Below are positions 5,322-37,633 of a DNA stretch of 64,000 nucleotides, one piece after another. How positions within the stretch are numbered: position 1 is the stretch's first letter; each line of letters starts with the position of its first letter. The translations under genes were made by a program, and so were the position numbers. The notes beneath the pieces were generated by a model. That model had not been told where the DNA came from, did no database searches, and was given only the letters and a program-made list of their open reading frames with translations. Location: assembly GCF_054482525.1 (NCBI RefSeq), contig NZ_CM137006.1, one strand, 5' to 3'.

Positions 5322-9002
<3,681 letters not shown>

Positions 9003-11198: not shown

Positions 11199-11489
11199 AT
11201 CATAACGTCCGGTTTCTTCCGTGTCAGCACCGGGGCGTTGGCATAATGCAATACGTGTATGCGCTAAACCCTGTGTGCATCGTTATTAATTATTCCCGGA
11301 CACTCCCGCAGAGGAGTTTCCCTGTCAGGGCTGCGGACATAGTTAATCCGGGAATACAGTGATGATCCTTCGCATCTGACATACATTAATAAATATTAAC
11401 AATATGAGATTTCAACTCATTGTTTAGGGTTTGTTTAATTTTCTACACATACGATTCTGCGAACTTCAAAAAGCATCGGGAATAACACC

Positions 11490-11783
11490 ATGAAAAAAAT
11501 GCTACTCGCTACTGCGCTGGCCCTGCTTATTACAGGATGTGCCCAACAGACGTTTACTGTTCAAAACAAACCGGCAGCAGTAACACCAAAGGAAACCATC
11601 ACCCACCATTTCTTCGTCTCTGGAATTGGGCAGAAGAAAACTGTCGATGCAGCTAAAATTTGTGGCGGCGCAGAAAATGTTGTTAAAACAGAAACCCAGC
11701 AAACATTCGTAAATGGATTGCTCGGTTTTATTACTTTAGGCATTTATACTCCGCTGGAAGCGCGTGTGTATTGCTCACAATAA
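11490..11783 (+). CDS. bor: Bor outer-membrane lipoprotein (serum-resistance moron)
   Basis: 97 aa, MKKMLLATALALLITGCAQQTFTVQNKPAAV..., lipobox LITGC; reads as lambda Bor; opposite strand to lysis genes as in lambda. Confidence 0.92.
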   Translation: MKKMLLATALALLITGCAQQTFTVQNKPAAVTPKETITHHFFVSGIGQKKTVDAAKICGGAENVVKTETQQTFVNGLLGFITLGIYTPLEARVYCSQ

Positions 11784-17490: not shown

Positions 17491-19017
17491 TTAGAAATAA
17501 ATCTCACCATCAACCATATATTTGAGAGCACTTATCGCCTGCTGGGCGGATATTACTTTCATTAAAGGATAGTGTTTAAAAACAATGCCATTCATAAAAT
17601 AGATATCACAGGTTTTATTATCCGTATTAATTATGATTTTTTCGAATGTTTTATAGGCAAGTGTACGGCATAACTCTCGTCCATTTTTACTGGTTAAGTC
17701 AATAGCATAAAAATCACTGAATGAATTTACACCTTTACTCTTCAAAGTTTTCAATGATACCGAAGCCCTTCGTAATTCCTTATCTAATAGTCTTATTTTC
17801 TCTGCTATAGCGGTAACTTCAGGCGCGACAGACAATGCAACGATTAAATTATTAATTTTCATCTGAAGCTCAATAATTTTTAACTCTAAAGTTTCATTAG
17901 CATCTTTCTTGTTTTCAACTGGTTGAATTTTGCTACAATTAAAAAGCAATTCATTAATGATATTATAATCAACCAAATCTCTTTTTATTGATGGCCTGTC
18001 ACATCGATGTAATCTTCTCATCGGACAAACATAATAGCCATGCAAACTTCCAGATACCGCATGAACAATCATGGTATTACCACAAGCCTCACACTTCATA
18101 ACTGTTCGAAGTAGATTTATTAGCATAGGATTCTTGCTACTATTGCTAATACCAAAAGGTGCCAACCGAATTTCCTGTACAGCGTAAAACAAATCATCTG
18201 ATATGACTCTGGGATAATAGCCAGCGATTTCACTTATCCCTTTCCCTCTTGCACGATATGAAGGTACGCATATACCTATCAGAGCTTTATTCGCTAATAA
18301 TTTTTCAATTACAGAAGGTCCCCATGCACTTTCTTTTCCTGAGAAATTCTTTACAGCATGATCATTTAAATACTTGGCTATTGCATTCAATGAGCGCCTT
18401 TCCATCCTGAGTTTAAAAATTAGCTCAATAGTTTTCACCCTGTCGGGGTCTGGAACAAAAGCCGTTCTTTTGTCATCTAAGGAGAGCCATCTCGGACAAG
18501 ACGCCGTCATAATCGTACCTGATTCCAGTGCATCCTGCCGTTTTTTCTTCCATGATAATTTAACCCGACTTGACTTTATCTCGCTTTCTTCATTTGCCCT
18601 TTGTGCTATAAGTATGGCTTTTATTAATGAATATGGCTCATTCAAAGAGTCAATATTATAGACTGTATTGTCGCAAAGAGTTATAACATCAATACCGTGA
18701 TTCAAAATCAATTTCAGACGTTCAATCGCTTCACCGACTTTTTCTCTTGAAAGTCTGTCCAGACTTTCAACTAACAATGTAGTTCCTGGCAATATATAAC
18801 CATGCTCTATAGCATCTAAAAATTCCGAAAAAGCTCCTGATTGTGCATGCTTTCCTTTGAATGCACTTAATCCTAAATCTTCATATGTTATGGTATCAAG
18901 ATAATAATCACTATTTACCTTTAACCATTCAGCAATAAGTCTTCTCTGTCGGTTTAATGAGTCGCCAGACATCTGACCTGGTGATGAAAATCGCATATAT
19001 GCTATGGCTTTTTTCAT
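17491..19017 (-). CDS. Large serine recombinase (ybcK-like), 508 aa
   Basis: N-terminal resolvase/invertase catalytic motif (AIAYMRFSSPGQ...SLNRQ), central recombinase domain, C-terminal Cys-rich zinc-ribbon (CEACGNTM...CPMRRLHRC). Confidence 0.85.
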   Translation of the reverse strand: MKKAIAYMRFSSPGQMSGDSLNRQRRLIAEWLKVNSDYYLDTITYEDLGLSAFKGKHAQSGAFSEFLDAIEHGYILPGTTLLVESLDRLSREKVGEAIERLKLILNHGIDVITLCDNTVYNIDSLNEPYSLIKAILIAQRANEESEIKSSRVKLSWKKKRQDALESGTIMTASCPRWLSLDDKRTAFVPDPDRVKTIELIFKLRMERRSLNAIAKYLNDHAVKNFSGKESAWGPSVIEKLLANKALIGICVPSYRARGKGISEIAGYYPRVISDDLFYAVQEIRLAPFGISNSSKNPMLINLLRTVMKCEACGNTMIVHAVSGSLHGYYVCPMRRLHRCDRPSIKRDLVDYNIINELLFNCSKIQPVENKKDANETLELKIIELQMKINNLIVALSVAPEVTAIAEKIRLLDKELRRASVSLKTLKSKGVNSFSDFYAIDLTSKNGRELCRTLAYKTFEKIIINTDNKTCDIYFMNGIVFKHYPLMKVISAQQAISALKYMVDGEIYF

Positions 19018-22539: not shown

Positions 22540-22620
22540 TAATTTGAATCAAGATTAAAACTATGGTTGTTTTTAGTCAACAACCATTTTCGTTTGATGG
22601 AATAAAACCTTGGTTGTACA
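22540..22620. promoter_or_regulatory. Right operator/promoter region (OR-like) between divergent cro-like and cI-like genes
   Basis: Palindrome ATGGTTGTT-N7-AACAACCAT at 22563-22587 and related AACTATGGTT / CCTTGGTTGT half-sites; the same motif family recurs at 24335-24390. Confidence 0.5.
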
Positions 22621-22628
22621 TTTGGACT

Positions 22629-23318
22629 ATGAAAACAACACTCTCAGAAAGACTTAAAGAAGCCAGATTAGCGCGAGGCCTTACACAAAAGGCGCTTGGG
22701 GATTTGGTCGGGGTTAGCCAAGCTGCTATTCAGAAAATCGAAACAGGGAAAGCTAACCAAACAACTAAAATCGTGGAGATCGCGAACGCTTTGGGTGTGC
22801 GCGCAGAATGGTTATCTTCTGGCGTTGGAAATATGTCAGACAGTACAGTGCAACCAATACAATCAACTGTCAGCCATTCCAAATACTTTAAGATTGACGT
22901 TCTTGATATAGAAGTGAGTGCCGGGCCGGGAGTCATCAACCGTGAATTTGTAGAAGTTCTACGCTCGGTTGAGTACTCGTTTGACGATGCTCGTCACATG
23001 TTCGATGGCAGGAAGGCGGAAAATATCCGCATCATTAACGTGCGTGGTGACAGCATGTCAGGAACGATCGAACCAGGTGATCTGCTGTTCGTTGATATCA
23101 CGGTTAAATCTTTCGACGGTGATGGTATCTATGCGTTTCTGTACGACGACACAGCCCATGTAAAGCGCCTGCAAATGATGAAAGATAAGCTACTGGTTAT
23201 CTCTGATAACAAGAGCTACTCACCGTGGGACCCGATCGAGAAAGACGAGATGAACCGGGTGTTCATTTTCGGGAAGGTTATTGGCAGTATGCCGCAGACG
23301 TATAGGAAACACGGATAA
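22629..23318 (+). CDS. Prophage repressor, LexA/S24 peptidase type with N-terminal HTH
   Basis: MKTTLSERLKEARLARGLTQKALGDLVGVSQAAIQKIETG... (HTH); C-terminal ...NVRGDSMSGTIEPGDLLFVD...HVKRL... (S24 Ser/Lys motifs); trimmed to first ATG. Confidence 0.8.
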   Translation: MKTTLSERLKEARLARGLTQKALGDLVGVSQAAIQKIETGKANQTTKIVEIANALGVRAEWLSSGVGNMSDSTVQPIQSTVSHSKYFKIDVLDIEVSAGPGVINREFVEVLRSVEYSFDDARHMFDGRKAENIRIINVRGDSMSGTIEPGDLLFVDITVKSFDGDGIYAFLYDDTAHVKRLQMMKDKLLVISDNKSYSPWDPIEKDEMNRVFIFGKVIGSMPQTYRKHG

Positions 23319-28092: not shown

Positions 28093-28329
28093 ATGTCTCG
28101 ACTAATCACTTTACAGGACTGGGCTAAAGAAGAATTTGGGGACTTAGCACCAAGTGAGCGAGTTCTGAAAAAATACGCGCAAGGGAAAATGATGGCCCCA
28201 CCCGCTATAAAAGTTGGTCGCTACTGGATGATTGACCGAAATTCCCGTTTTGTAGGAACGCTTGCAGAACCGCAACTCCCAATAAACGCAAACCCAAAAC
28301 TCCAACGGATAATCGCTGATGGCTGCTAG
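28093..28329 (+). CDS. xis: Excisionase (Xis-like)
   Basis: 78 aa; N-terminus MSRLITLQDW... parallels lambda Xis MYLTLQEW...; AGGAGG RBS; 3' end overlaps int start. Confidence 0.7.
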   Translation: MSRLITLQDWAKEEFGDLAPSERVLKKYAQGKMMAPPAIKVGRYWMIDRNSRFVGTLAEPQLPINANPKLQRIIADGC

Positions 28330-29461
28330 ACCCCGATCTCACAAAATCTCTATACCCAATTTATATTGCAAATTAGATAAGCGAACCGGAAAGGTATATT
28401 GGCAATACAAACATCCACTATCCGGTCGTTTTCATAGCTTAGGAACTGATGAGAATGAAGCAAAACAAGTTGCTACTGAAGCAAATACCATTATTGCTGA
28501 ACAACGTACCCGACAAATATTAAGCGTCAATGAGCGTCTAGAAAGAATGAAAGGCAGGCGCTCAGACATTACGGTGACAGAATGGCTTGATAAATATATT
28601 TCTATCCAGGAGGACAGGCTGCAACATAATGAACTAAAACCCAACTCCTATCGGCAAAAAGGTAAACCCATTCGTCTTTTCCGTGAGCATTGTGGAATGC
28701 AACACCTCAAGGATATTACCGCACTTGATATTGCCGAAATAATTGATGCTGTAAAGGCTGAAGGTCATAACAGGATGGCGCAAGTCGTGAGAATGGTGTT
28801 GATCGACGTCTTCAAAGAAGCACAACACGCAGGACATGTTCCGCCAGGATTTAACCCAGCGCAGGCAACAAAACAACCGCGAAATCGAGTAAACCGCCAA
28901 AGATTATCACTGCCCGAATGGCAGGCAATATTTGAAAGCATAAGCAGACGGCAGCCCTATTTAAAATGCGGCATGCTACTTGCTCTTGTTACTGGACAAC
29001 GTTTAGGCGATATCTGCAATTTGAAATTCTCTGATATATGGGACGACATGTTGCACATTACTCAGGAAAAAACCGGTTCAAAACTTGCTATTCCGCTTAG
29101 CCTGAAATGCGATGCTCTGAATATTACCCTTCGTGAAGTTATATCTCAGTGCAGGGATGCTGTTGTTAGTAAATATCTGGTCCATTACCGTCACACTACC
29201 TCTCAAGCAAACAGAGGAGACCAGGTTTCTGCAAATACTCTTACAACGGCTTTTAAAAAGGCCAGGGAAAAATGTGGCATAAAATGGGAGCCAGGAACTG
29301 CGCCCACATTTCATGAGCAGCGATCTCTGTCAGAACGGTTATATCGGGAACAGGGTCTGGATACGCAAAAGTTGTTAGGTCATAAATCCAGAAAAATGAC
29401 CGACCGATACAATGATGATCGTGGTAAAGACTGGATTATCGTAGATATCAAAACAGCATAG
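28319..29461 (+). CDS. int: Tyrosine integrase, lambda Int family
   Basis: 380 aa; motifs shared with lambda Int (RSHK near N-terminus, ...VTGQRLGDICNLKFSDI..., ...TFHEQRSLSERLY..., ...LLGHKS...RY.DDRG..W); adjacent to the attachment junction. Confidence 0.9.
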   Translation: MAARPRSHKISIPNLYCKLDKRTGKVYWQYKHPLSGRFHSLGTDENEAKQVATEANTIIAEQRTRQILSVNERLERMKGRRSDITVTEWLDKYISIQEDRLQHNELKPNSYRQKGKPIRLFREHCGMQHLKDITALDIAEIIDAVKAEGHNRMAQVVRMVLIDVFKEAQHAGHVPPGFNPAQATKQPRNRVNRQRLSLPEWQAIFESISRRQPYLKCGMLLALVTGQRLGDICNLKFSDIWDDMLHITQEKTGSKLAIPLSLKCDALNITLREVISQCRDAVVSKYLVHYRHTTSQANRGDQVSANTLTTAFKKAREKCGIKWEPGTAPTFHEQRSLSERLYREQGLDTQKLLGHKSRKMTDRYNDDRGKDWIIVDIKTA

Positions 29462-29509: not shown

Positions 29510-29528
29510 TTTTACATCATCATAAAAC

Positions 29529-29574: not shown

Positions 29575-30825
29575 TTACATATTCTTGATGATCGCGTCAC
29601 CAAACTCTGAACATTTCAGCAGTTTAGCGCCTTCCATCAGACGTTCGAAGTCATAGGTTACAGTCTTGGCGTTGATCGCGCCTTCCATACCTTTAACAAT
29701 CAGGTCTGCGGCTTCAGTCCAGCCCATATGGCGCAGCATCATCTCAGCGGAGAGAATAATAGAGCCTGGGTTTACTTTGTCCTGACCGGCATATTTCGGC
29801 GCAGTACCGTGGGTGGCTTCAAACAGGGCGCATTCGTCACCGATGTTTGCGCCTGGGGCGATACCGATACCGCCGACCTGTGCAGCCAGAGCGTCAGAAA
29901 TGTAGTCACCGTTCAGGTTCATACAGGCGATAACATCATATTCAGCCGGACGCAGCAGAATCTGTTGCAGGAATGCATCAGCAATCACGTCTTTAATGAC
30001 GATCTCTTTGCCGGTATTCGGATTTTTAACTTTCAGCCACGGGCCGCCGTCGATCAGTTCACCGCCAAACTCTTCACGCGCCAGCTGGTAGCCCCAGTCT
30101 TTAAACGCGCCTTCGGTGAATTTCATGATGTTGCCTTTGTGAACCAGGGTCACAGAGTCACGATCGTTAGCAATTGCGTATTCGATCGCTGCACGAACCA
30201 GACGTTTGGTGCCTTCTTCAGAACACGGCTTAATACCGATGCCGCAATGTTCCGGGAAGCGAATTTTCTTCACACCCATCTCTTCACGCAGGAATTTAAT
30301 CACTTTCTCAGCGTCGGCAGAGTCTGCTTTCCATTCGATACCCGCATAAATGTCTTCCGAGTTTTCACGGAAGATAACCATATCGGTCAGTTCAGGGTGT
30401 TTAACCGGGCTTGGGGTGCCCTGGTAGTAACGTACCGGACGCAGGCAGATATAGAGATCCAGCTCCTGGCGCAGGGCAACGTTCAGAGAGCGAATACCGC
30501 CACCAACCGGAGTGGTCAGCGGGCCTTTGATGGCAACGCGATATTCACGAATCAGATCAAGGGTTTCAGCAGGTAGCCAGACATCCTGACCATAAACCTG
30601 TGTGGATTTTTCACCGGTGTAAATTTCCATCCAGGAGATTTTACGCTCGCCTTTATAGGCTTTCTCGACTGCAGCGTCGACCACTTTCAGCATGGCTGGG
30701 GTTACATCTACACCGATTCCATCACCTTCAATGTAAGGGATAATCGGATTTTCAGGAACGTTGAGTTTGCCGTTTTGCAGGGTGATCTTCTTGCCTTGTG
30801 CCGGAACAACTACTTTACTTTCCAT
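29575..30825 (-). CDS. icd: Isocitrate dehydrogenase (NADP), 3' end contributed by the prophage
   Basis: 416 aa, [38 protein letters not shown]..., ends ...FGDAIIKNM. Confidence 0.95.
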
Positions 30826-33958: not shown

Positions 33959-35332
<1,374 letters not shown>

Positions 35333-35422
35333 GCCTCAAAACAGTGCCGGATGGCGATGCTGTCCGGCCTGCTTATTAAGATTATCCACTTTTTCTTTTT
35401 TCACTTTACCTCCCCTCCCCGC

Positions 35423-35439
35423 TGGTTTATTTAATGTTT
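35423..35439 (+). promoter_or_regulatory. PhoP box (GGTTTA-N5-TGTTTA) of the autoregulated phoPQ promoter
   Basis: GGTTTATTTAATGTTTA, a direct hexamer repeat with 5-bp spacer, about 65 bp upstream of the phoP start. Confidence 0.65.
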
Positions 35440-35501
35440 ACCCCCATAAACACATAATCGCGTTACACTATTTTAATAATTAAGACAGGGAGAAATAAAA
35501 A

Positions 35502-36173
35502 ATGCGCGTACTGGTTGTTGAAGACAATGCGTTGTTACGTCACCACCTTAAAGTTCAGATTCAGGATGCTGGTCATCAGGTCGATGACGCAGAAGATGCC
35601 AAAGAAGCCGATTATTATCTCAATGAACATTTACCGGATATTGCGATTGTCGATCTCGGTTTGCCTGACGAGGACGGTCTGTCACTGATTCGCCGCTGGC
35701 GTAGCAATGATGTTTCACTGCCGATTCTGGTATTAACCGCCCGTGAAAGCTGGCAGGACAAAGTCGAAGTATTAAGTGCCGGTGCTGATGATTACGTGAC
35801 TAAACCGTTTCATATTGAAGAGGTGATGGCGCGAATGCAGGCATTAATGCGGCGTAATAGCGGTCTGGCTTCACAGGTCATTTCGCTACCTCCGTTTCAG
35901 GTTGATCTCTCCCGCCGTGAATTATCTATTAATGACGAAGTGATCAAACTGACCGCGTTCGAATACACCATTATGGAAACGTTGATACGCAATAATGGCA
36001 AAGTGGTGAGCAAAGATTCGTTAATGCTCCAACTCTATCCGGATGCGGAGCTGCGGGAAAGCCATACCATTGATGTACTGATGGGACGTCTGCGCAAAAA
36101 AATACAGGCACAATATCCGCAAGAAGTGATTACCACCGTTCGCGGCCAGGGCTATCTGTTCGAATTGCGCTGA
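35502..36173 (+). CDS. phoP: Response regulator PhoP
   Basis: 223 aa, [40 protein letters not shown]..., OmpR-family. Confidence 0.95.
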
Positions 36174-37633
36174 TGAAAAAATTACTGCGTCTTTTTTTCC
36201 CGCTCTCGCTGCGGGTACGTTTTCTGTTAGCAACGGCAGCAGTAGTATTGGTGCTTTCGCTTGCCTACGGAATGGTTGCGCTGATCGGTTATAGCGTCAG
36301 TTTCGATAAAACCACGTTTCGGCTGTTACGTGGCGAGAGCAATCTGTTCTATACCCTTGCGAAGTGGGAAAACAATAAGTTGCATGTCGAGTTACCCGAA
36401 AATATCGACAAGCAAAGCCCCACTATGACGCTAATTTATGATGAGAACGGGCAGCTTTTATGGGCGCAACGTGACGTGCCCTGGCTGATGAAGATGATCC
36501 AGCCTGACTGGCTGAAATCGAATGGTTTTCATGAAATTGAAGCGGATGTTAACGATACCAGCCTATTGCTGAGTGGAGATCATTCGATACAGCAACAGTT
36601 GCAGGAAGTGCGGGAAGATGATGACGACGCAGAGATGACCCACTCGGTGGCGGTAAACGTCTATCCGGCAACATCGCGGATGCCAAAGTTAACCATTGTG
36701 GTGGTGGATACCATTCCGGTGGAGCTAAAAAGTTCCTATATGGTCTGGAGCTGGTTTATCTATGTGCTCTCAGCCAATCTGCTGTTAGTGATCCCGCTGC
36801 TGTGGGTCGCCGCCTGGTGGAGTTTACGCCCCATCGAAGCCCTGGCAAAAGAAGTCCGCGAACTGGAAGAACATAACCGCGAATTGCTCAATCCAGCCAC
36901 AACGCGAGAACTGACCAGTCTGGTACGAAACCTGAACCGACTGTTAAAAAGTGAACGCGAACGTTACGACAAATATCGTACGACGCTCACCGACCTGACC
37001 CATAGTCTGAAAACGCCACTGGCGGTGTTGCAAAGTACGCTGCGTTCTCTGCGTAGTGAGAAGATGAGCGTCAGTGATGCTGAGCCGGTAATGCTGGAGC
37101 AAATCAGCCGCATTTCACAGCAAATCGGCTACTACCTGCATCGTGCCAGTATGCGCGGCGGGACATTGCTTAGCCGCGAGCTGCATCCGGTCGCCCCACT
37201 GCTGGACAATCTCACCTCGGCGCTGAACAAAGTGTATCAACGCAAAGGGGTCAATATCTCTCTCGATATTTCGCCAGAGATCAGCTTTGTCGGTGAGCAG
37301 AACGATTTTGTCGAGGTGATGGGCAACGTGCTGGATAATGCCTGTAAATATTGCCTCGAGTTTGTCGAAATATCTGCAAGGCAAACCGACGAGCATCTCT
37401 ATATTGTGGTCGAGGATGATGGCCCCGGTATTCCATTAAGCAAGCGAGAGGTCATTTTCGACCGTGGTCAACGGGTTGATACTTTACGCCCTGGGCAAGG
37501 TGTAGGGCTGGCGGTAGCACGCGAAATCACCGAGCAGTATGAGGGTAAAATCGTCGCCGGAGAGAGCATGCTGGGCGGTGCGCGGATGGAGGTGATTTTT
37601 GGTCGCCAGCATTCTGCGCCGAAAGATGAATAA
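36173..37633 (+). CDS. phoQ: Sensor histidine kinase PhoQ
   Basis: 486 aa, [44 protein letters not shown]..., start overlaps phoP stop. Confidence 0.95.

What the first reader, a model, noticed from the sequence alone, without database searches (positions are those of the whole stretch)
35423..35439. PhoP box upstream of phoPQ
The direct repeat GGTTTA-N5-TGTTTA matches the PhoP box consensus and sits about 65 bp upstream of phoP, consistent with the known autoregulated promoter. It confirms that the host regulatory region is intact next to the prophage-bearing locus.
Basis: established knowledge. Interest (0 to 1): 0.15.

Follow-up and report, generated by a model that had tools for sequence, protein, structure and literature searches.

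The report
Known PhoP box of phoPQ promoter
This is the well-known binding site through which the E. coli regulator PhoP switches on its own operon (phoPQ) when magnesium is low; it is intact, matches the K-12 site exactly, and is ordinary.

Summary
The motif is real. GGTTTA-TTTAA-TGTTTA lies at 35424-35440 (+), one base to the right of the reported coordinates. Its 3' end is 61 nt from the phoP ATG at 35502. About 0.01 perfect (T/G)GTTTA-N5-(T/G)GTTTA matches are expected by chance in this window, and two were found. The other sits upstream of the prophage gene bor, whose K-12 counterpart borD is in the PhoP regulon.

The box, the -10 hexamer CATAAT (35453-35458) and the 12-nt gap between them are positioned exactly as in E. 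coli K-12. By homology, the mapped PhoP-dependent P1 start falls at 35465, so the box spans -41 to -25 and replaces the -35 element. The constitutive P2 start falls on the last base of the box.

The 59-nt core promoter is present in 5424 of 5426 complete E. coli genomes. In 71 of 81 purB-phoP syntenic loci from other Enterobacterales species, a box of at least 10/12 sits 49-64 nt from the ATG. Across all 83 loci with such a box, the best -10-like hexamer starts 12 nt downstream in 78.

The prophage junction (29521/29522) is 5.9 kb and six genes away. This is already known and of low interest.

The parts
35424..35440 (+). PhoP box: half-site 1 GGTTTA (35424-35429), spacer TTTAA (35430-35434), half-site 2 TGTTTA (35435-35440). 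The repeat is direct and in the same orientation as phoP.
   Evidence: identical to K-12; identical to the Shigella flexneri phoP site tGGTTTAtttaaTGTTTAc. The S. flexneri phoPQ upstream fragment was shifted by PhoP-P in EMSA (PMC5775216).
35453..35458 (+). -10 hexamer CATAAT of the PhoP-dependent promoter P1, starting 12 nt after the box
   Evidence: Read from sequence. Position follows from the K-12 P1 start. CATAAT is the commonest hexamer at offset 12 in 83 orthologous promoters.
35465..35465 (+). Inferred P1 transcription start (A). It corresponds to K-12 position -36 from the ATG. The leader here is 37 nt because of one extra A.
   Evidence: PMC3536696 plus the alignment. Inferred by homology, not mapped in this strain.
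35440..35440 (+). Inferred start of the upstream promoter P2 (K-12 position -61, first base of 'acccccataacc'). It is the last base of the PhoP box.
   Evidence: Primer 5'Ptet-P2phoP in PMC3536696 plus the alignment. Inferred by homology.
35465..35501 (+). phoP 5' leader with Shine-Dalgarno GGGAG (35488-35492) and an A-run (35497-35501) that is one A longer than in K-12
   Evidence: The predicted MicA-leader duplex is essentially unchanged by the extra A (-25.3 vs -24.3 kcal/mol).
35450..35450 (+). SNP A (K-12 has C) at P1 position -15, in the spacer between the box and the -10
   Evidence: The 59-nt core with this allele is identical in 1349 of 5426 matching records.
35346..35368 (+). Terminator-like hairpin after purB (GCCGGA...TCCGGC)
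35502..36173 (+). phoP, 223 aa, 222/223 identical to K-12 PhoP (I44L). The C-terminal DNA-binding half is identical.
36173..37633 (+). phoQ sensor kinase, 486 aa, overlapping the phoP stop codon by one base
33962..35332 (+). purB, the upstream gene on the same strand

Best explanation
The 17-bp direct repeat at 35424-35440 is the PhoP box of the PhoP-dependent promoter P1 of the phoPQ operon. When PhoQ is activated (low Mg2+ and other inducing conditions), phosphorylated PhoP binds the two hexamers. Their centres are 11 bp apart, about one helical turn. The site occupies -41 to -25, where a -35 hexamer would normally sit. From there PhoP recruits RNA polymerase to the -10 hexamer CATAAT 12 nt downstream (class II-type activation), and transcription starts at about 35465. 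This raises PhoP and PhoQ levels, giving positive autoregulation. Shown here: the sequence, spacing and position are identical to the K-12 promoter, and they are conserved within and between species. Taken from the literature: PhoP dependence of P1, the position of the start, and binding of PhoP-P to the phoPQ promoter fragment of Shigella, which carries the identical 17-mer. Inferred: binding and activation in this particular strain. Also inferred: because the weak upstream promoter P2 starts on the last base of the box, its core elements lie under the box, so PhoP binding should occlude P2 while it activates P1.
For: Perfect consensus match at 35424-35440; 0.01 expected by chance in the window. 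Box, flanks and -10 are identical to MG1655. K-12 P1 is 36 nt upstream of the ATG and 'normally positively regulated by PhoP' (PMC3536696). This places the box 12 nt upstream of the -10, as in the Salmonella phoP promoter, where the box overlaps the predicted -35 and is orientation- and distance-dependent (PMC3335776). No sigma-70 -35/-10 pair is found in 35200-35620, as expected for an activator-dependent promoter. The identical site is listed for S. flexneri phoP, and the phoPQ upstream fragment is shifted by PhoP-P (PMC5775216). The core promoter is present in 5424/5426 complete E. coli genomes. Two of the more divergent full-length alleles (H40, H41) and a deletion allele (P276M) were inspected, and all three still read an unchanged box. 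Of 81 purB-phoP syntenic loci from other species, chosen without regard to the box, 71 have a box of at least 10/12 at 49-64 nt from the ATG and 41 have a perfect one. Across all 83 loci with such a box, the best -10-like hexamer starts exactly 12 nt after the box in 78. Only 5% of random 260-nt windows reach 10/12 anywhere. The PhoP DNA-binding domain is identical to K-12. phoP is induced in a PhoQ-dependent way in E. coli (PMC5740661).
Against: There is no direct binding or transcript-mapping data for this strain. The primary E. coli papers (Kato 1999, Yamamoto 2002, Minagawa 2003, Zwir 2005) are not in the held library, so the footprint and S1 mapping are cited only second-hand. Two small differences from K-12 (A for C at -15; one extra A in the leader) have not been tested for effect. 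In the cross-species logo, the high information content of the half-sites is partly circular, because loci were anchored on the best box. The conserved -10 at +12 and the syntenic-set frequency are not circular.
Confidence: 0.95

Rival explanations
1. The motif is a chance occurrence in an A+T-rich intergenic spacer and has no regulatory role.
For: The spacer is A+T-rich. Two one-mismatch matches elsewhere in the window are at chance level.
Against: A perfect match is expected 0.01 times per window. The site is identical to the characterised K-12 site. It is near-universal in E. coli. It is conserved in position and spacing across Enterobacterales while the flanks and spacer vary.
Confidence: 0.01
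2. The main role of this sequence is as core promoter DNA for the constitutive promoter P2 (its -10 region lies in or around the TTTAA spacer and it starts at 35440). PhoP binding here would mainly repress P2 rather than activate P1.
For: The K-12 P2 5' end maps to the last base of the box. TATTTA (35428-35433) and TTTAAT (35430-35435) are -10-like. TTTACC (35405-35410) is a weak -35 lying 17 nt before TATTTA (read).
Against: The spacer TTTAA is poorly conserved between species (at most 0.56 bits per position), whereas the half-sites and the P1 -10 are conserved. P1 is the PhoP-activated promoter according to the literature. In Salmonella, deleting the box abolishes growth in low Mg2+ (PMC2650801). 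The two roles are not exclusive, so this is an added layer rather than a replacement.
Confidence: 0.03
3. The repeat is bound in vivo mainly by a regulator other than PhoP (another OmpR-family response regulator, or factors reported at the Salmonella phoP promoter).
For: OmpR-family proteins all read direct repeats about 10-11 bp apart. The search listed papers whose titles and abstracts concern other regulators at the Salmonella phoP promoter (a horizontally acquired regulator, PMC7641745; OmpR, PMC3945435). Neither was read.
Against: The hexamers are a perfect PhoP consensus. PhoP-P shifts the promoter fragment that carries the identical site in Shigella. The same motif with the same 12-nt geometry precedes bor in this window. 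No evidence here points to another protein.
Confidence: 0.01

Closest known systems
E. coli K-12 phoPQ promoter P1 and its PhoP box (Kato, Tanabe and Utsumi 1999, cited in PMC3536696 and PMC8355897)
   Same: The 17-mer, both flanking bases, the 12-nt distance to CATAAT, the -10 hexamer and the inferred start are all the same. Gene order purB-phoP-phoQ is identical.
   Different: One SNP in the box-to-(-10) spacer (A for C at 35450, position -15), one extra A in the leader before the ATG, and several substitutions further upstream near the purB stop. PhoP differs by I44L.
Salmonella enterica phoP promoter, 'architecture I' PhoP-activated promoters (Zwir et al. 2012, PMC3335776)
   Same: A single box in direct orientation, 12 nt upstream of the -10 and overlapping the -35 position. 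Positive autoregulation.
   Different: The spacer differs: S. enterica subsp. arizonae and diarizonae read GGTTTATTAACTGTTTA, 62 nt from the ATG (L097, L105).
Shigella flexneri phoP PhoP box (PMC5775216)
   Same: Identical 19-mer tGGTTTAtttaaTGTTTAc. The phoPQ promoter fragment is shifted by PhoP-P.
   Different: Different host. No known difference in the site.
Yersinia phoP autoregulation through the y1795 promoter (Perez et al. 2009, PMC2650801)
   Same: A perfect PhoP box 12 nt before GATAAT drives transcription into phoP.
   Different: In Yersinia the box is about 750 nt upstream, in front of an extra gene, and none lies next to phoP. Here the box is directly in front of phoP.
borD (DLP12 prophage) PhoP-regulated promoter of K-12
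   Same: The second perfect box in this window (11421-11437) precedes the prophage gene bor. It matches the K-12 borD upstream region at 140 of 141 positions and is identical through the box and everything downstream. It has the same 12-nt geometry.
   Different: A different gene, carried by a prophage. Not part of the phoP promoter.

Membership tests
PhoP box (PhoP-binding direct repeat of Enterobacteriaceae) | Two hexamers (T/G)GTTTA in direct repeat separated by 5 nt | tested here: met
   GGTTTA-TTTAA-TGTTTA at 35424-35440, 12/12 consensus positions. Consensus as quoted in PMC5775216 and PMC8355897.
PhoP box (PhoP-binding direct repeat of Enterobacteriaceae) | More frequent than chance, and located in a promoter region in front of a PhoP-regulated gene | tested here: met
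   0.01 expected, 2 found. One precedes phoP and the other precedes bor, whose K-12 counterpart borD is in the PhoP regulon.
PhoP box (PhoP-binding direct repeat of Enterobacteriaceae) | Bound by phosphorylated PhoP | not testable with these tools
   Only indirect evidence: the S. flexneri phoPQ promoter fragment, which carries the identical site, is shifted by PhoP-P (PMC5775216). The PhoP DNA-binding domain here is identical to K-12. No PhoP-DNA complex is found in the PDB by sequence; the nearest full-length DNA-binding relatives are BasR/PmrA and KdpE entries.
Architecture I / class II-type PhoP-activated promoter | A single box, in direct orientation, about 12 nt upstream of the -10 hexamer and overlapping the -35 position | tested here: met
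   The box ends at 35440 and CATAAT starts at 35453, leaving 12 nt. There is no other box with at most 1 mismatch in the intergenic region. Definition from PMC3335776.
Architecture I / class II-type PhoP-activated promoter | No good -35 hexamer, so the promoter depends on the activator | tested here: met
   The sigma-70 consensus scan finds no -35/-10 pair in 35200-35620. The hexamer 17 nt upstream of the -10 is TTTAAT, 3/6 to TTGACA (read).
E. coli phoPQ autoregulated promoter P1 | Same position relative to the mapped PhoP-dependent transcription start (K-12: 36 nt before the ATG) | tested here: met
   The alignment with MG1655 and the published start place +1 at 35465 and the box at -41..-25. 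The start itself was not mapped in this strain.
E. coli phoPQ autoregulated promoter P1 | Conserved at orthologous loci | tested here: met
   5424/5426 complete E. coli genomes. 71/81 purB-phoP syntenic loci of other species have a box of at least 10/12 at 49-64 nt from the ATG. Among all 83 loci with such a box, 78 have the best -10-like hexamer exactly 12 nt downstream.
E. coli phoPQ autoregulated promoter P1 | Mg2+- and PhoP-dependent transcription in vivo | not testable with these tools
   Literature only (PMC3536696; PMC5740661; PMC2650801 for Salmonella).

The most novel reading that the evidence does not exclude
The promoter allele of this lineage quantitatively alters phoPQ autoregulation or translation compared with K-12. 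The allele has A instead of C at P1 position -15, three bases upstream of the -10, a variant shared by about a quarter of complete E. coli genomes. It also has a 37-nt rather than 36-nt leader, which lengthens the Shine-Dalgarno-to-AUG spacing by one A. A predicted MicA pairing change was checked and not found (-25.3 vs -24.3 kcal/mol).
Probability: 0.08. Interest if true: 0.15.

Novelty: already known. Interest (0 to 1): 0.05.

Why it matters
It matters only as annotation. It shows that the phoPQ control region in this strain is the standard one. The PhoP/PhoQ circuit governs Mg2+ homeostasis, envelope modification and resistance to antimicrobial peptides, and here it should be autoregulated as in K-12. 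The neighbouring prophage at icd has not disturbed it. The one mildly useful by-product is that the prophage's own bor gene carries a perfect PhoP box, so it is probably wired into the same host regulon.

Tried and rejected
(1) I tried to read the primary E. coli papers (Kato 1999 PMC94065, Minagawa 2003 PMC161583, Zwir 2005 PMC548500, Coornaert 2010 PMC2925231). None is held, so the start sites are taken second-hand from PMC3536696.

(2) The sigma-70 consensus scan of 35200-35620 found no promoter. I read this as consistent with an activator-dependent promoter, not as evidence against one.

(3) The Rfam scan of the whole window gave no hit, so no known cis-regulatory RNA is present in the leader.

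(4) I asked whether the extra A in the leader weakens MicA pairing. MicA was verified by Rfam, and the duplex prediction is practically the same for both leaders, so this idea was dropped.

(5) The one-mismatch box matches at 7954 and 19072 lie in the prophage, one inside the terminase ORF on the opposite strand. Their number is at chance level, so they are not considered sites.

(6) I considered whether the prophage could have displaced or altered the regulatory region. This is rejected: the junction is at 29521/29522, and the host segment 29522-43612 is 99.9% identical and colinear with prophage-free PCN033.

Full report
OBSERVATION. The + strand reads ...ccccgct GGTTTA TTTAA TGTTTA cccccataaacaCATAATcgcgttAcact.... 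The pattern search places the motif at 35424-35440. The reported 35423-35439 is therefore one base too far left.

The first ORF downstream is phoP (ATG 35502, 223 aa), followed by phoQ (36173-37633). purB ends upstream at 35332. There are 61 nt between the box and the ATG, and the box centre is 70 nt upstream, so 'about 65 bp' is fair.

A perfect (T/G)GTTTA-N5-(T/G)GTTTA is expected 0.01 times in the window (dinucleotide-preserving shuffles), and two are present. With one mismatch allowed there are four against 0.8 expected. The two imperfect matches are in the prophage and are not distinguishable from chance.

IDENTITY WITH THE CHARACTERISED PROMOTER. The 169-bp purB-phoP spacer matches 5425 of 5426 complete E. 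coli genomes and is 100% identical to strain PCN033.

Aligned with K-12 MG1655, the box, the bases on either side of it and everything from the -10 hexamer to the Shine-Dalgarno sequence are identical. The differences are:
- A for C at 35450.
- One extra A in the A-run before the ATG (35497-35501).
- A few substitutions close to the purB stop.

[quoted passage not shown] Transferred through the alignment, +1 is the A at 35465, the -10 hexamer is CATAAT at 35453-35458 (-12 to -7), and the box spans -41 to -25. The 12-nt gap between the box and the -10 is the geometry described for the Salmonella phoP promoter and the other 'architecture I' promoters. In those promoters the box overlaps the predicted -35 hexamer, and activity depends on its orientation and distance (PMC3335776).

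A consensus scan finds no sigma-70 -35/-10 pair anywhere in 35200-35620, as expected for a promoter that needs an activator in place of a -35 element. The same 19-mer (tGGTTTAtttaaTGTTTAc) is listed for Shigella flexneri phoP, and the phoPQ upstream fragment there is shifted by phosphorylated PhoP (PMC5775216).

It was carried out and is not met.

P2. The same paper gives the 5' end expected for the upstream promoter P2 as -61, with a primer beginning acccccataacc. In the window this is 35440, the last base of the box. The core elements of P2 must therefore lie under the box. Candidates are TATTTA at 35428-35433, with TTTACC 17 nt upstream. I infer that PhoP binding occludes P2 while activating P1. 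This is inference only.

CONSERVATION WITHIN E. COLI. A 59-nt core (35412-35470) is found in 5424 of 5426 genomes. It is identical in 1349 records, 95-99% identical in 4067 and 90-95% identical in 10. I inspected two of the more divergent full-length alleles (H40, H41) and the deletion allele of P276M. In the first two the changes lie in the C-tract upstream of the box or near purB, never in the box. Strain P276M has a 9-bp deletion (ACCCCCATA) between the box and the -10. If real, it would bring the spacing to 3 nt.

CONSERVATION BETWEEN SPECIES. I anchored a degenerate DNA pattern on the conserved N-terminus of PhoP ([14 protein letters not shown]), not on the promoter. It returned 120 loci from species-representative genomes of Enterobacterales.

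Of the 81 loci in which purB lies directly upstream, 71 have a box of at least 10/12 located 49-64 nt from the ATG, and 41 have a perfect box at 59-64 nt. Over all 83 loci with such a box, the best -10-like hexamer starts exactly 12 nt after the box in 78. The hexamers are CATAAT 39, TATACT 20 and GATAAT 10. In random 260-nt windows of the same loci only 5% reach 10/12 anywhere.

When the loci are anchored on the box, information content is high in the half-sites and at the -10, and low in the 5-nt spacer and the flanks. The half-site signal is partly circular because of the anchoring. The -10 signal at +12 is not.

The Yersinia loci lack a box next to phoP. They have a perfect one about 750 nt upstream, before a gene of about 207 aa, again 12 nt before GATAAT. 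This reproduces the published rewiring through the y1795 promoter (PMC2650801). That paper also reports that deleting the box from the Salmonella phoP promoter prevents growth in low Mg2+.

THE REGULATOR. PhoP in the window is 222/223 identical to K-12 (I44L), and the DNA-binding half is identical, so the recognition specificity should be the same. By sequence, only the receiver domain of E. coli PhoP is in the PDB (2pkx/2pl1). The closest full-length relatives listed there are BasR/PmrA (4s04, 4s05, 8jo2) and KdpE (4kfc, 4kny). The tandem head-to-tail binding mode is therefore taken from established knowledge of the OmpR/PhoB family and not tested here.

CONTEXT AND THE 'PROPHAGE' REMARK. Window 1-29521 is a lambdoid prophage. 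It encodes:
- a lambda-type integrase at 28319-29461;
- terminase, portal and capsid proteins;
- a replication O protein;
- a CI-like repressor.

The prophage is inserted next to icd (29575-30825, minus strand). The host segment 29522-43612 is 99.9% identical and colinear with PCN033, which has no prophage at that position. The PhoP box is 5.9 kb from the junction, beyond icd, rluE, nudJ, mnmA, hflD and purB. The regulatory region is intact, but nothing would have led one to expect otherwise.

SMALL DIFFERENCES FROM K-12. The -15 A/C SNP does not create or destroy an extended -10 (TG) motif. About a quarter of complete genomes carry the window's core allele. The extra A lengthens the Shine-Dalgarno-to-AUG spacing by one base and lies in the region that MicA is predicted to pair with. 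The MicA sequence was verified by Rfam. The predicted duplex is -25.3 kcal/mol for the window leader against -24.3 for K-12, so no effect is predicted.

VERDICT. This is the textbook PhoP box of the autoregulated phoPQ promoter. It is already known and of low interest.

Noticed in passing
window 11421-11437 (+), bor ATG at 11492: This is the only other perfect PhoP box in the window (TGTTTAGGGTTTGTTTA). It lies 54 nt upstream of the prophage lipoprotein gene bor and 12 nt upstream of a -10-like TACGAT (11450-11455). The 141-nt region differs by a single base (upstream of the box) from the K-12 DLP12 borD upstream region. borD is reported as part of the PhoP regulon (PMC5740661). This prophage gene is therefore probably under host PhoP control, 24 kb from phoP itself.
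   Followed up: partly
L004 (E. coli P276M, NZ_CP044293.1), aligned to window 35441-35449: A 9-bp deletion (ACCCCCATA) lies between the PhoP box and the P1 -10 hexamer. It shortens the spacing from 12 to 3 nt and removes the P2 start region. It could be a natural loss of phoPQ autoregulation or an assembly error.
   Followed up: no
L008, L034, L040, L044 (Citrobacter werkmanii, Citrobacter sp. Cu233, Lelliottia nimipressuralis, Citrobacter youngae ATCC 29220): A phoP-like gene (83-96% identical to the window PhoP) is preceded by ORFs that look related to one another (shared LKLANRSQFILHAPYE / LARQ-RAPST stretches). The longest, 429 aa in L040, begins like a phage integrase by eye (no family search was run). 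purB is absent and there is no PhoP box of at least 11/12 in the upstream sequence available (921-2500 nt). Either a mobile element has inserted directly upstream of phoP or this is a second, element-borne copy. Another C. youngae assembly (L045) has the normal purB-box-phoP arrangement.
   Followed up: no
L009, L020, L036, L096 (Yersinia spp.): No box lies next to phoP. A perfect box sits 746-766 nt upstream, in front of a gene of about 207 aa and 12 nt before GATAAT. This is consistent with the published y1795-promoter rewiring.
   Followed up: yes
window 1-29521: A lambdoid prophage is integrated beside icd, with its junction at 29521/29522. It has a lambda-type integrase (28319-29461), a large serine recombinase (17491-19017), a CI-like repressor (22563-23318), replication protein O, terminase, portal and major capsid proteins, and a DUF1398 (ybcV-like) gene upstream of bor.
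   Followed up: partly
E. coli genome searches of window 35333-35501 and 35412-35470: Eleven of about 5430 matches to the phoP promoter are on records labelled as plasmids. A few genomes have two copies.
   Followed up: no
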